Below are positions 1,342 to 5,846 of a DNA stretch of 5,846 bases, piece after piece. This stretch comes from a virus. Its lineage: Duplodnaviria; Heunggongvirae; Uroviricota; Caudoviricetes. The position numbers were made by a program. The stretch is from positions 1 to 5,846 of the IMG/VR virus record IMGVR_UViG_2531839446_000024, one strand, 5' to 3'. Positions within the stretch are counted from its first letter, which is position 1; each line of letters begins with the position of its first letter.

Positions 1342-4300
1342 TAACCGTATCGCGTTTATTGACCCGGCAAACGGGAATGAAACGCCGATGTTTGTGGTCA
1401 GGGAGATCAGATATTTATGAACGACGTGTTCCTGAAGCGCCTGACGGCCCCGACCATTACCAGTGGTGGAAATCCACCGGCATTTTCCCTGACATCAGAC
1501 GGAAAGCTGACCGCTAAAAATGCGGATATCAGTGGCAGTGTGAATGCGAACGCCGGGACGCTCAACAATGTCACGGTAAATGAAAACTGTACGATTAAGG
1601 GCATGCTGGAGGCGACTCAGGTCAGAGGTGACTTCGTTAAAGCTGTATCCAAATCATTCCCGAAACAGGCTGGTACGTGGGGTAACACGGAAACACCAAA
1701 CGGGACGGTTACAGTCACCATCAGCGATGATCATAACTTTGACCGTCAAATCATTATTCCGCCCATTATCTTTAACGGAATAGCGTATAGCTATCCGGGA
1801 AGTGGTAATAACCCGGGAGGTACAAGATACACGGGTTATGGTTTTGAAGTTCGCAAAAACGGTGTATTAATCGCATCCAGAGAAACTAAAGGGGCCATTC
1901 CCGGTAGCTACAGTGCGGTTATTGATATGCCGAGTGGCAGGGGAAGCGTCACTCTGGAGTTTAAGGTTTTCCATAAAGGCAATCAGCGGGCAGGTAATAT
2001 CACCGACTGTACGGTGATTGTGACCAAAAAAGCCGCTTCCGGCATCAGTATTCGTTGAAATTGTTATAACCCATATAAGGGCACCAGAAATGGTGCCTTT
2101 TTTATTGCAGAAAAGCGAGAGGTAATTATGCGTAAACTTTATGCCGCCATTTTTTCCGCAGCCATCTGTCTGGCCGTATCCGGTGCGCCTGCATGGGCAT
2201 CTGAACATCAGTCCACGCTGAGCGCGGGGTATCTTCATGCCTCGACGAACGTTCCCGGCAGCGATGATCTGAACGGGATTAACGTGAAATACCGTTATGA
2301 GTTTACGGACACACTGGGGATGGTGACGTCATTCAGCTATGCAGGAGACAAGAATCGCCAGCTGACCCATTACAGCGATACCCGCTGGCATGAAGATTCC
2401 GTTCGTAACCGCTGGTTCAGCGTGATGGCGGGGCCGTCTGTGCGCGTGAATGAATGGTTCAGCGCGTATGCGATGGCGGGTGTGGCTTACAGCCGTGTGT
2501 CGACTTTCTCCGGGGATTATCTCCGCGTAACTGACAACAAGGGGAAAACGCACGACGTGCTGACCGGAAGTGATGACGGTCGCCACAGCAACACGTCTCT
2601 GGCGTGGGGGGCTGGCGTGCAGTTTAACCCGACCGAATCCGTGACCATTGACCTTGCTTATGAAGGTTCCGGTAGTGGCGACTGGCGAACGGATGCATTT
2701 ATTGTTGGTATCGGATACCGTTTCTGACAACAGACGCCGATTTATCTTCTGTAAATATTGTTATGATACGCAGGTTCATCCACCTTATGGGGTGAACTGC
2801 GTTTGAGGAAACGTAAAGTTACACTGTCCTGAAGCCCGTGGCGTCACTGCTGCGGGCTTTTTTTATTGGTGGAAAAGTATGACTGTAAAAATTTCTGGCG
2901 TGCTTAAAGATGGCACAGGAAAACCAGTACAGAACTGCACCATTGTGCTGAGGGCCAGACGAACCAGCAGCACGGTGGTGGTGAACACGGTGGCCTCAGA
3001 AAACCCGGATGAAGCCGGGCGTTACACAATGGACGTCGAGTATGGTCAGTACAGCGTCAGTCTGTTGGTGGAGGGATTTCCGCCGTCACACGCCGGGATT
3101 ATCACCGTGTATGAGGGCTCAAAGCCGGGCACACTGAATGATTTTCTCGGCGCCATGGCGGAGGAGGATGTCCGGCCGGAGGCACTGCGTCGTTTTGAAC
3201 TGATGGTGGAAGAAGCAGCGCGTCACGCAGAGGAGGCGAAGAAGAATGCCGGAGAGGCAGAGACGTCCGCGAGGAATGCCGGCATATCAGCCAGTAAGGC
3301 GGAAGCGAGCGCCGCAAATGCTGATACTTCAGCAGAGGATGCATCGGAGTCAGCCCGGCAGGCGGCAGAAAGTGCAGCCTCAGCAAAGCAGTCAGAGGAT
3401 GCGTCCTCGTCCTCGGCTTCTGCGGCCGCTCAAAAAGCCAGTGAGTCATCACAAAGTGCAGCAGAAGCTGAATTGTCAAGAAAGACGGCAGAAAGTGCAG
3501 CCGGTAATGCATCCAGGGATGCGACGACCGCAGCAGAAAAAGCCCGGGAGTCAGCAGAAAGCGCACAGTCAGCGGAACAAAGCAGGATAGCGGCGGAAGA
3601 GGCCGTAAACCGAATCCCCACCGTGGTGGGACCTCCCGGGCCAAAGGGGGAACAGGGGCCCGCGGGTCCTCAGGGGCCGAAGGGTGATAAGGGAGAGCGC
3701 GGTGACACCGGCCCTGTCGGGGCAACCGGCGAACGGGGACCGGCAGGTGATGCTGGTCCGGCAGGCCCGCAGGGGCCGAAAGGTGACATGGGAGAGCGGG
3801 GAGAGACCGGTCTGACGGGAAATGCAGGTCCACAGGGTCCAAAGGGAGATACCGGTGCGGCAGGCCCGGCAGGCCCACAGGGACCGAAAGGAGAAACAGG
3901 TGCGGCTGGCCCGGTGGGGGCAACCGGACCTCAGGGACTGAAGGGCGACCCGGGGGAGACACAAATCCGTTTTCGTCTGGGGCCGATGAGCATTATTGAG
4001 ACAAACAGCTATGGCTGGTTCCCGGATACAGATGGTGCGCTCATCACCGGACTGACCTTTCTTGACCCCAAAGATGCCACACAGGTTCAGGGGATGTTTC
4101 AGCATTTGCAGGTCAGATTTGGTGACGGGCCGTGGCAGGATGTTAAGGGGCTGGATGAAGTGGGCAGTGATACAGGCAGAACAGGAGAATGACATGAACA
4201 TACTAAAAAAACTTATGCAGCGTCTGTGCGGTTGCGGAAAGCATGATGGCTGTGAACACGGGCAGTTACTTACAGCACAACTGCGACTGGGACCGGCAGA

Positions 4301-5846
4301 CATTCTGGAGTCAGATGAGAATGGCATTATCCCGGAGCAGGACAGGATAATCACGCAGGTGGTGATACTGGATGCGGATAAAAAGCAGATACAGTGTGTG
4401 GTAAGACCGCTGCAAATCCTGCGTGCTGACGGGACGTGGGAAAATATTGGCGGGATGAAATAGCCGACGGATTCACAAAAACCGGAGTCCGGATCCGGTT
4501 TTTGTTGTCATGTCCGGTGGATGTTTGTAGGAAACCAAAGGTGGCAAAACTGCTGGAGGTTTTGTGGTTGAGTATGTCAATATAATTAATAGATTAAAGA
4601 GTTAGTTGTGAAGAAAATATGGATAAACAGGACGACGAATGCTTTCACCGATAAGGACAACTTTCCATAACTCAGCAAATATAGTGCAGAGTTCCCCCTG
4701 TCAAACGGTTTCTTTTGCAGGAAAGGAATATGAGTTAAAGGTCATTGATGAAAAAACGCCTATTCTTTTTCAGTGGTTTGAACCTAATCCTGAACAATAT
4801 AAGAAAGATGAGGTTCCAATAGTTAATACTAAGCAGCATCCCTATTTAGATAATGTCATAAATGCGGCAAGGATAGAGAGTGATCGTATGATAGGTGTTT
4901 TTGTTGATGGCGATTTTTCATTCAGCCAAAAGGTTGCTTTTTCAAAACTGGAACAAGATTTTGAAAATATAATGATAATCTATCGGGAAAATGTTGATTT
5001 CAGCATGTATGATAGAAAACTATCAGATATTTATCATGATATTATATGTGAGCAAAAGTTACGCTCTGAAGCCAAAAGAGATGAATACTTGTTGAATCTG
5101 TTGGAGAAAGAGTTGAGTAAAATTTCAAATGCGCAGGATTCTTTGATTTATATGTATGCAGAGAAGAGAGATCATACATGGTTTGACATCTTCAGAAATT
5201 TAGCCTTATTGAAGGCAGGAGAAATCTTTAGATGCACAGATAACACAAAGAATCATGGAGTTTTATCCGGTGAGGGGTGTATATATCTTGATATGGATAT
5301 GATGCTTACAGGTAAGCTTGGTGTAATGCGTGCTCCAGATGGAATTGCAGTACATGTTGATCGTCGTAATGACAGTGTAAATATTGAAAATGGTGCAATA
5401 ATTGTTAATCGTAGTAATCATCCGGCTCTACTTGAGGGGTTGTCTTTTATGCACAAAAAAGTAGATGCTCATCCATATTATGATGGATTAGGAAAAGGAA
5501 TTAAGAAATATTTTAATTTTACTACATTGCATGATTACAATCATTTTTGTGACTTTATTGAGTTTAAACACAAAAATATTATTATGAACACAAGTCAGTA
5601 CACAGGAAGTTCATGGTAAAACCACCTCCCGTGGAGGTGGTTGCTTGCAGTCAGGTGTTTCGGGCCTGCGGCTTTTTGTGTTCCTTGGTAAGTGGTTACG
5701 ATTCTTTTGTGTTATTCCTCTCTGCGTCTATTGTCTTGGATAGCCATAAGAGTTCAGATACTGAGAATTTTAATTGTGGTGTTCTGTCTCTCGCGCCGGG
5801 TGGGATCATGTCAAAAGCGCAGGATTTTCTGCTGAATACTGTGTAG

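What the first reader, a model, noticed from the sequence alone, without database searches (positions are those of the whole stretch)
4194..4463. Uncharacterised 89-aa Cys/His-containing protein coupled to the tail fibre gene
The ORF begins 2 nt after the stf stop, has a good SD and is followed by the strongest terminator in the window, so it is the last gene of the tail module. The sequence MNILKKLMQRLCGCGKHDGCEHGQ... carries a C-x-C-x5-C-x-H cluster that could bind a metal, plus one later Cys, and does not resemble the lambda-type Tfa assembly protein that I recall. Its position suggests a fibre chaperone or tip accessory, but it could equally be an unrelated small moron. This is the least characterised coding element in the window.
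Basis: partly seen in the sequence, partly recalled or inferred. Interest (0 to 1): 0.55.

Follow-up and report, generated by a model that had tools for sequence, protein, structure and literature searches.

The report
Free-standing copy of fibre tip domain
The 89-codon gene after the tail-fibre gene is real, conserved and already catalogued: it encodes a free-standing copy of the fibre's own tip (trimerising) domain, its exact role is still unknown, and it is not a conserved metal-binding protein.

Summary
The ORF at 4194-4463 (+) is real. It has an AGGAG Shine-Dalgarno 6 nt upstream, its ATG starts 2 nt after the fibre's TGA, and a terminator hairpin follows. It is not family-less. Residues 28-89 are a Pfam PF06820 (Phage_fiber_C, "PfC") domain (E 1e-35), and the whole protein matches phrog_576. 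The upstream fibre (EPclA type) ends in the same domain (35% identity, E 4e-11), which is published as a trimerisation module.

The ORF sits after PfC-tipped fibres in both long-tailed lambdoid prophages (including phage 434) and short-tailed Stx phages. 296 phage records hold the fibre tip and 296 hold the ORF.

Its PfC part is under strong purifying selection (pN/pS 0.07, versus 0.22 for the fibre's own tip). The Cys/His segment is the least constrained part (0.65), and the third Cys is Arg in most alleles.

Published work already covers it. The Sp5 orthologue ORF68 was deleted singly and is dispensable. Two of its peptides occur at trace level in purified phi24B virions.

Best reading: a translationally coupled, dispensable, trimer-forming accessory of the fibre's distal end. 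The gene is already known, its function is unresolved, and interest is modest.

The parts
2879..4192 (+). Side tail fibre gene, EPclA type: PfN, coiled coil, collagen repeats, then PfC
   Evidence: Pfam PF08400 (aa 1-133), PF01391 (collagen) and PF06820 (aa 363-426). Architecture and length match EPclA in PMC3368898.
3965..4156 (+). The fibre's own PfC tip domain (aa 363-426), paralogous to the small ORF
   Evidence: PF06820 E 4e-34. 35% identity to ORF89 aa 29-88, E 4e-11. Published as a trimerisation module. pN/pS 0.22.
4183..4187 (+). Shine-Dalgarno AGGAG for the small ORF, lying inside the last fibre codons
   Evidence: Read from the sequence. The junction CAGGAGAATGAC|ATG is identical in 80 of 84 copies, and the last 12 nt are identical in all. 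It is annotated as an RBS in phage 434.
4190..4196 (+). TGA-C-ATG stop/start junction, giving translational coupling (the ORF is in the +1 frame relative to the fibre)
4194..4463 (+). 89-aa stand-alone PfC protein. Orthologues: Sp5 ORF68/ECs1229, phi24B 'gp59', phage 434 CPT_434_24
   Evidence: PF06820 E 1e-35. phrog_576 matched end to end, E 7e-60. Whole-gene pN/pS 0.16. PGAP name seen.
4200..4226 (+). Predicted N-terminal amphipathic helix (aa 3-11, ILKKLMQRL)
   Evidence: AF2 secondary structure H3-11, at low confidence. Codons 1-11 have pN/pS 0.16.
4227..4274 (+). Variable linker carrying the Cys/His residues (aa 12-27)
   Evidence: pN/pS 0.65 for codons 12-28. C20, H22 and C14 are polymorphic. 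pLDDT is below 50 for aa 13-22.
4275..4460 (+). PfC domain of the small protein (aa 28-89), beta-rich
   Evidence: PF06820 profile positions 1-64 of 64. pN/pS 0.066 at pS 0.127. Predicted strands.
4475..4509 (+). Intrinsic-terminator hairpin with U-tract that closes the fibre module
   Evidence: -19.2 kcal/mol, z -2.9. Annotated as a terminator in phage 434. Similarity between loci decays to random within about 60-80 nt after the stop.

Best explanation
The ORF encodes a small cytoplasmic protein made of three parts: a short N-terminal helix, a variable linker, and a second, diverged copy of the fibre's C-terminal PfC domain.

It is translated on its own from the late fibre mRNA. Translation is coupled to the end of the fibre gene by a Shine-Dalgarno inside the last fibre codons and a TGA-C-ATG junction. 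Because isolated PfC trimerises, the protein most likely forms a small trimeric knob.

It moves with the collagen-PfC fibre as one module, ending at the terminator, through both long-tailed and short-tailed Stx/lambdoid phages. It most likely acts on or with the distal end of that fibre as a dispensable accessory, for example a helper of tip assembly or stability, or a sub-stoichiometric tip-associated protein.

Shown here or in the literature: the homology, the coupling signals, the exclusive co-occurrence, purifying selection on the protein, dispensability in Sp5, and peptides in a virion preparation.

Inferred: trimer formation by this protein, physical contact with the fibre, and the nature of the benefit.
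For: - Pfam PF06820 covers aa 28-89 (E 1e-35), and the same domain ends the fibre.
- The two copies share 35% identity, E 4e-11.
- phrog_576 is matched end to end.
- All 84 copies are intact, with a near-invariant SD-stop-start junction (the loci are the best-scoring 80 of 283).
- All 84 copies are preceded by a PfC-ended fibre.
- 296 phage records hold the ORF and 296 hold the fibre tip, with identical name breakdowns.
- The context is the same in podoviral Stx phages, phage 434, ML35, and a C. rodentium prophage remnant.
- pN/pS is 0.066 for the ORF's PfC against 0.22 for the fibre's PfC, in the same loci and at equal pS.
- PfC alone is a trimer, and Col-PfC refolds rapidly (PMC3368898).
- The peptides ADGTWENIGGMK and VITQVVILDADKK are present in the purified phi24B virion proteome file.
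- The conserved block ends just after the terminator.
Against: - The single in-frame deletion of Sp5 ORF68 leaves plaque formation and lysogenisation intact although the fibre is essential, so any assembly role is not obligatory under those conditions.
- Recombinant EPclA trimerises without it.
- The virion signal is tiny. I read the counts as 3 spectra per peptide, against 2267 for the fibre. The file was truncated when stored, and the preprint's text does not discuss the protein. Contamination therefore cannot be excluded.
- There is no clear co-variation between ORF alleles and fibre-tip alleles (mean Cramer's V 0.18).
- No structural evidence exists. The monomer model is poor (pLDDT 62), and no multimer prediction was possible.
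Confidence: 0.5

Rival explanations
1. Alternate fibre tip by recoding. A +1 frameshift near the fibre stop fuses the fibre to the ORF, giving a longer fibre with a second, different knob.
For: The ORF is in the +1 frame, and that frame is open for 46 codons upstream in 75 of 84 copies. One GenBank record names the gene 'alternate tail fiber tip'. The phi24B authors put two hypothetical fusions in their search database and noted 'Spike or just gp59?'. P0144 shows that PfC-like units can be tandem within one fibre chain.
Against: There is no slippery or known +1 motif in the last 40 nt, and tRNA-Glu on GAA cannot re-pair on AAU (and the sequence itself). Five copies have a stop only 13 codons upstream. 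The gene has its own ATG and a well-spaced SD, both near-invariant. Mondal et al. found no frameshift signal. Synonymous divergence of the fibre PfC (pS 0.121) is not depressed where the frames overlap. No junction peptide was seen in the part of the proteome file held.
Confidence: 0.07
2. Silent reservoir cassette. The ORF is kept as spare sequence that recombination can swap into the fibre gene to vary its tip (the suggestion of Mondal et al. 2016).
For: It is a diverged copy of the tip lying right next to it. Rare chimeras exist: P0062 (collagen fused to the ORF's PfC) and P0121 (ORF N-half fused to the fibre PfC C-half).
Against: The protein sequence is under strong purifying selection and varies less than the fibre tip, which a store of variation or an untranslated cassette would not show. 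The two copies are only about 56% identical in DNA with no long exact match, and there are no flanking inverted repeats or DGR-like repeats. None of the 120 best homologues is longer than 131 aa, so no normal fibre carries the ORF-type tip. The chimeras look like deletion scars, as do the J and Lom fusions P0065 and P0087.
Confidence: 0.07
3. Trans-acting free knob not involved in assembly. The soluble trimer is released at lysis, or acts in the cell, and binds a conserved host or phage ligand. Examples would be masking receptors on debris or sibling cells, or a lysogen-benefit (moron-like) role.
For: The gene is dispensable for infectivity yet strongly conserved. It is less variable than the receptor-facing fibre tip, suggesting a conserved ligand. 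It is at most trace in virions. It sits at the boundary with virulence cargo: nleB2 in the window and NleG elsewhere.
Against: It has no signal peptide or lipoprotein-type leader (sequence) and no defence-system match. It has no promoter of its own and is coupled to a late structural gene. There is no direct evidence of any ligand.
Confidence: 0.2
4. Obligatory Tfa-like chaperone needed to fold the fibre (the label used in the phage 434 record).
For: It occupies the position of tfa, directly after the fibre gene. The phage 434 record calls it 'tail fiber assembly chaperone'. PfC alone failed to express without a thioredoxin fusion.
Against: There is no Caudo_TAP/Tfa match and no NCBIfam match. 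Sp5 with ORF68 deleted is viable although the fibre is essential. rEPclA trimerises alone. No paper was found that supports the label.
Confidence: 0.06
5. Metal-binding protein that uses the C-x-C-x5-C-x-H cluster.
For: The cluster is present in this copy. C12 and H17 are invariant in the 65 alleles.
Against: C20 is Arg in 53 of 65 alleles, H22 is Asn or Asp in 11, and C14 is His or Tyr in 4. The segment has pN/pS 0.65. The C. rodentium homologue lacks H17, C20 and H22. The segment is predicted disordered.
Confidence: 0.05

Closest known systems
Orthologues already on record: Sp5 ORF68 (ECs1229), phi24B 'gp59', AU5Stx1 atfT, phage 434 CPT_434_24, and PGAP 'phage tail fiber C-terminal domain-containing protein'
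   Same: The protein is the same: 89 aa, 92-97% identity, in the same position after the fibre gene with the same junction.
   Different: Nothing material. The window copy has Cys at position 20, where most alleles have Arg.
PfC domain (Pfam PF06820) at the C-terminus of EPclA/EPclB collagen-like tail fibres (Ghosh et al. 2012, PMC3368898)
   Same: The profile is matched over its full length. The region is predicted beta-rich. By homology it presumably trimerises.
   Different: It stands alone rather than at the end of a collagen shaft, and it carries a 27-aa leader instead. It is only 35% identical to the fibre copy and about three times more constrained.
Lambda Tfa, P2 G, Mu U tail-fibre assembly proteins (Pfam Caudo_TAP). 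The comparison rests on my own knowledge of these families.
   Same: A small gene directly downstream of the fibre gene, co-expressed with it, and not essential for plaque formation in the laboratory.
   Different: No sequence relationship. Instead it is homologous to the fibre tip itself. It is not needed where the fibre is essential.
gp38-type adhesins of T2/T6/S16-like phages, which bind the fibre tip (from my own knowledge)
   Same: A small protein encoded next to the distal fibre gene that could sit on the tip.
   Different: No homology was found. The ORF is nearly invariant, whereas adhesins are hypervariable. It is only trace in virions.
Switchable fibre-tip cassettes (Mu G segment, P1 C segment, DGR variable tips) (from my own knowledge)
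   Same: A second version of the tip is encoded beside the fibre gene.
   Different: No inverted repeats, invertase, template/variable repeat pair or reverse transcriptase. The two copies are only about 56% identical in DNA.

Membership tests
Pfam PF06820 Phage_fiber_C (PfC) | Profile match above the gathering score | tested here: met
   122.4 bits against a cut-off of 25. aa 28-89 cover profile positions 1-64 of 64.
Pfam PF06820 Phage_fiber_C (PfC) | Lies at the C-terminal end of a long tail-fibre chain | tested here: not met
   The domain is C-terminal, but the protein is only 89 aa with no shaft. None of the 120 best homologues exceeds 131 aa.
Pfam PF06820 Phage_fiber_C (PfC) | Forms trimers | not testable with these tools
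   This was shown only for the fibre's PfC (PMC3368898). No multimer prediction was available, and the monomer model has pLDDT 62.
PHROG phrog_576 ('tail fiber protein') | Full-length profile match | tested here: met
   E 6.8e-60, residues 1-89 on profile positions 1-89 of 89.
Lambda Tfa / Caudo_TAP tail-fibre assembly proteins | Sequence membership | tested here: not met
   No Pfam hit other than PF06820 at E<=1, and no NCBIfam hit.
Lambda Tfa / Caudo_TAP tail-fibre assembly proteins | Gene directly downstream of the fibre gene and co-expressed with it | tested here: met
   One-base spacer, with the SD inside the fibre's 3' end.
Lambda Tfa / Caudo_TAP tail-fibre assembly proteins | Required for a functional fibre | tested here: not met
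   This rests on the literature for the Sp5 orthologue. The fibre ORF67 is essential, while the ORF68 deletion is among the non-essential genes. It has not been tested in this prophage.
Programmed +1 frameshift fusion (prfB-like) | Shift-prone codon at the stop with possible tRNA re-pairing, and a stimulatory SD at the right distance | tested here: not met
   At GAA-UGA-C there is no re-pairing on AAU, the SD abuts the P-site codon, and there is no slippery heptamer in frame. Mondal et al. also found none.
Invertible or DGR-type alternative tip cassette | Flanking inverted repeats, or a near-identical template/variable repeat pair | tested here: not met
   No such repeats in 2800-4700. The two PfC copies are about 56% identical in DNA.
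Anti-phage defence proteins (PADLOC) | Profile match | tested here: not met
   0 families at E<=1.

The most novel reading that the evidence does not exclude
The phage makes a free trimeric copy of its fibre knob that works in trans. It would not be a folding chaperone. One possibility is a soluble decoy released at lysis that masks a conserved surface ligand on debris or sibling cells. Another is a docking piece that holds the fibre tips folded back against the particle (the phi24B preprint suggests its fibre tips may contact the capsid). Either would be a kind of fibre accessory not described before, built by duplicating the tip domain itself.
Probability: 0.15. Interest if true: 0.55.

Novelty: already known. 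Interest (0 to 1): 0.25.

Why it matters
These collagen-like fibres, with this small gene, are carried by nearly all Stx-converting and effector-carrying lambdoid phages of EHEC/EPEC. There are about 11 copies per genome in 698 complete E. coli genomes. The gene's role in adsorption and host range therefore bears on how Shiga toxin and effector genes spread.

The gene itself is already catalogued, and its deletion phenotype in one phage is published. What remains open is why a dispensable paralogue of the fibre tip is kept under stronger constraint than the tip itself. That is a modest but well-defined question for phage structural biology.

Tried and rejected
- PDB sequence search with the ORF: only chance hits, E>0.5.
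- PDB sequence search with the fibre's C-terminal part: only collagen matches, and no solved PfC.
- AlphaFold2 monomer on a 17-sequence alignment: pLDDT 62.
- Foldseek against PDB with that model: best E 0.7, meaningless.
- NCBIfam: no family. PADLOC: none. Rfam on the whole window: none.
- Profile search of 1.84 billion representatives: only 84 hits. Most are fragments or chimeras of the same two sequence types, plus one distant fibre, P0144.
- Scan of 185,579 species genomes: 3 loci. One is an evident contaminant and one a mis-binned E. coli-type prophage contig, so no distant relatives were found.
- Literature searches by locus tag and for phage 434: no functional study.
- Search for work on phage lambda_2B8 fibres: nothing usable.
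- Allele-linkage test between the fibre tip and the ORF: weak and uninformative.
- Lipoprotein or signal peptide idea for MNILKKLMQRLCGC: rejected, because there is no hydrophobic core.
- A trimer or fibre-ORF complex prediction could not be run with the tools allowed.
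Full report
**1. What is in the sequence**

The window is a lambdoid tail-end region. It holds the C-terminal part of J (ORFs 28-1344 and 1417-2058), an Ail/Lom gene (2128-2727), a 437-aa side tail fibre (2879-4192), the 89-aa ORF (4194-4463), and an NleB-family effector gene (4639-5619).

The fibre stop TGA is at 4190-4192, followed by one spacer base and the ATG at 4194. AGGAG lies at 4183-4187, 6 nt before the ATG. A hairpin with a U-tract at 4475-4509 folds at -19.2 kcal/mol. 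It is not the strongest in the window, because the hairpin after lom reaches -20.5, and the consensus scan missed it. The curated phage 434 record does mark a terminator at this position. Rfam finds nothing in the window.

**2. The ORF is not family-less**

Residues 28-89 match Pfam PF06820 (Phage_fiber_C) over the full profile, at E 1e-35 and 122 bits against a cut-off of 25. The upstream fibre ends in the same domain, at aa 363-426. The two copies align at 35% identity over 62 residues, E 4e-11.

The whole protein matches phrog_576 ('tail fiber protein') end to end, E 7e-60. PGAP names it 'phage tail fiber C-terminal domain-containing protein'. There is no match to lambda-type Tfa, to any NCBIfam model or to any PADLOC model.

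**3. What is published about the domain and the gene**

*Ghosh et al. 2012 (PMC3368898).* They describe the upstream fibre type as EPclA (PfN, coiled coil, collagen, PfC). They show that PfC (residues 363-426) is a trimer on its own, and that Col-PfC refolds its triple helix rapidly. Full-length recombinant EPclA was trimeric when expressed without the downstream gene. They do not mention the small gene.

*Mondal et al. 2016 (PMC5155283).* They made single in-frame deletions in the Stx2 phage Sp5.
- The fibre ORF67 is essential.
- ORF68 (ECs1229, 89 aa) had its own deletion primers and is listed among the non-essential late genes.
- Only the ORF64 and ORF76 mutants are reported as markedly impaired.
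- The authors found no frameshift signal and suggested that ORF68 may be a reservoir for fibre variation.

*A 2026 preprint on phi24B (10.64898/2026.04.10.717836).* It resolves the fibre gp61 and says nothing about the small gene in its text. Its proteome file, however, lists two peptides unique to the small gene, ADGTWENIGGMK and VITQVVILDADKK. I read the counts as 3 spectra each, against 2267 for gp61. The file was truncated when stored.

Depositors have labelled the gene in several ways: hypothetical, tail fiber protein, 'alternate tail fiber tip' (KU977419), and 'tail fiber assembly chaperone' (phage 434). I found no paper behind the last two labels.

**4. Distribution and context**

- The 541-nt stretch spanning the ORF occurs at 7221 places in 698 of 5426 complete E. 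coli genomes, with a median of 11 places per genome.
- In the phage collection, 296 records hold the ORF and 296 hold the fibre's PfC tip, with identical breakdowns by organism name.
- The pair occurs in short-tailed Stx phages (Traversvirus), in long-tailed lambdoid prophages, and in the classical phage 434. Phage 434's J, lom, fibre, ORF and nleB region is 92-95% identical to the window.
- In a degraded C. rodentium prophage remnant, a truncated PfC fibre, the small ORF and NleG still lie together.
- Beyond Escherichia and Citrobacter there is essentially nothing. Only 84 representative clusters out of 1.84 billion proteins match, and most are fragments or deletion chimeras.
- Only three loci appear in 185,579 species genomes. 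One is a 725-bp contaminant contig and one a mis-binned E. coli-type prophage contig.
- Similarity between loci ends within about 60-80 nt after the stop. The fibre, the ORF and the terminator therefore form the 3' end of a module, beyond which variable effector cargo begins.

**5. Selection**

In 80 IMG/VR loci plus others (84 copies, 65 distinct alleles), every copy is intact and the SD-stop-start junction is nearly invariant. These are the best-scoring 80 of 283 loci, so intactness is biased upward.

| Region | pN/pS |
|---|---|
| Whole ORF | 0.159 |
| Codons 1-11 (predicted helix) | 0.158 |
| Codons 12-28 (Cys/His segment) | 0.653 |
| Codons 28-89 (ORF PfC), pS 0.127 | 0.066 |
| Fibre's own PfC, same loci, pS 0.121 | 0.22 |

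In the fibre's PfC, changes concentrate at a few positions: 370/371, 378, 383, 402, 406 and 408. The small protein is therefore translated and constrained, more so than the fibre tip.

C20 is Arg in 53 of 65 alleles, H22 is Asn or Asp in 11, and C14 is His or Tyr in 4. The C. rodentium homologue lacks H17, C20 and H22. AlphaFold2 predicts a helix at aa 3-11, a disordered stretch at aa 13-22, and beta strands from 27 to 84, at low confidence (pLDDT 62).

**6. Alternatives tested**

*Frameshift fusion.* The ORF is in the +1 frame, which is open for 46 codons upstream in most copies but only 13 in five. There is no slippery motif and no possibility of re-pairing at GAA-UGA-C. A shift anywhere upstream of the last ~11 codons would destroy the fibre's own PfC. 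Synonymous divergence in the overlap is not depressed.

*Recombinational or invertible cassette.* The two PfC copies are about 56% identical in DNA with no long exact match. There are no flanking inverted repeats and no DGR-like repeats. No homologue longer than 131 aa carries the ORF-type domain. The few chimeras (P0062, P0065, P0087, P0121) look like deletion scars of decaying prophages.

*Obligatory chaperone.* This is contradicted by the Sp5 deletion and by recombinant EPclA.

*Defence gene or unrelated moron.* There is no PADLOC match, the ORF has no promoter of its own, and its start is coupled to the fibre gene.

**7. Best explanation**

The gene encodes a translationally coupled, independently translated paralogue of the fibre's trimerising tip domain. 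It travels with the collagen-PfC fibre as one module.

By homology it probably forms a small trimeric knob with three short N-terminal helices. [quoted passage not shown] A trans-acting role for the free knob is the main rival.

One distant fibre protein (P0144) carries four tandem units matching the C-terminal half of PfC ahead of a collagen stretch. So such units can lie one after another along a fibre axis, which makes stacking of a free PfC trimer on the terminal knob conceivable. That is inference only.

**8. Verdict**

The emphasis on a Cys/His metal site and on the gene being 'uncharacterised' is not. The gene is already known, annotated in hundreds of genomes, and has a published deletion phenotype in a relative. 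Its biochemical role remains open. Interest is modest.

Noticed in passing
window 1300-1420: The J (central tail fibre) gene is broken. Relative to phage 434 there is a 1-nt insertion near 1315 and a 1-nt deletion near 1398, with a TAA at 1342-1344 in the shifted stretch. J therefore reads as two ORFs (28-1344 and 1417-2058). Either this prophage has a defective J or these are sequencing errors.
   Followed up: partly
window 1-5846 versus OL657226.1 (L088): The whole window is collinear with classical phage 434 at 92-95% identity (J, lom-like porin, 437-aa side fibre, 89-aa ORF, terminator, nleB). Phage 434 goes on to carry NleC- and NleH-like genes. In phage 434 nleB is a pseudogene, whereas in the window it is intact at 326 aa.
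   Followed up: partly
window about 4465-4572 (equivalents: L087 3863-3929, L089 1866-1973): PGAP annotates a short pseudogene fragment directly after the small ORF. It is called 'tail assembly protein, frameshifted, incomplete' in one genome and 'hypothetical protein, missing N-terminus' in another. It may be a vestige of a tfa-like gene displaced when this fibre module was acquired. It overlaps the terminator.
   Followed up: no
L037, L041, L053, L069 (about +975 nt from the ORF start); L047, L049, L061, L062, L064, L066, L067 (about +1043 nt): Partial second copies of the ORF's 3' part (query nt 130-268 or 167-270, 84-87% identity) lie about 1 kb downstream, among NleG-type effector cassettes. 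This suggests repeated recombination at the ORF/terminator boundary when cargo was exchanged.
   Followed up: partly
proteins P0062, P0065, P0087, P0121, P0117: Chimeric small proteins fuse pieces of fibre collagen, J, Lom or NleG (DUF1076) to parts of the ORF. One (P0121) joins the ORF's N-half to the fibre PfC's C-half. They look like deletion scars in decaying prophages.
   Followed up: partly
L090 (NZ_JPLE01000138.1, 'Xanthomonas pisi') and L092 (SFGJ01000067.1, 'Clostridiales MAG'): A 725-bp contig in a Xanthomonas assembly carries the ORF at 98% identity. A contig binned into a Clostridiales MAG is an E. coli-type J, lom, EPclA prophage fragment. Both are probably contamination or mis-binning.
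   Followed up: partly
protein P0144 (565 aa): A collagen-containing fibre-like protein of unknown origin has four tandem units matching the C-terminal half of PfC (35-50% identity to ORF aa 53-89), followed by collagen repeats. It is the only distant relative of the domain that was found.
   Followed up: partly
window 3965-4156 (fibre PfC): Amino-acid variation in the fibre's own tip is concentrated at a few positions (370/371 GN/AS/MS, 378 N/H/Y, 383 D/G, 402 R/Q, 406 F/L/M/V, 408 Q/R). These may mark its ligand-facing surface.
   Followed up: no
window 2077-2100, 2831-2860, 4475-4509: Each of J, lom and the fibre-plus-ORF unit is followed by its own hairpin terminator, so late transcription must read through them. 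The phage 434 record annotates the same three terminators.
   Followed up: no
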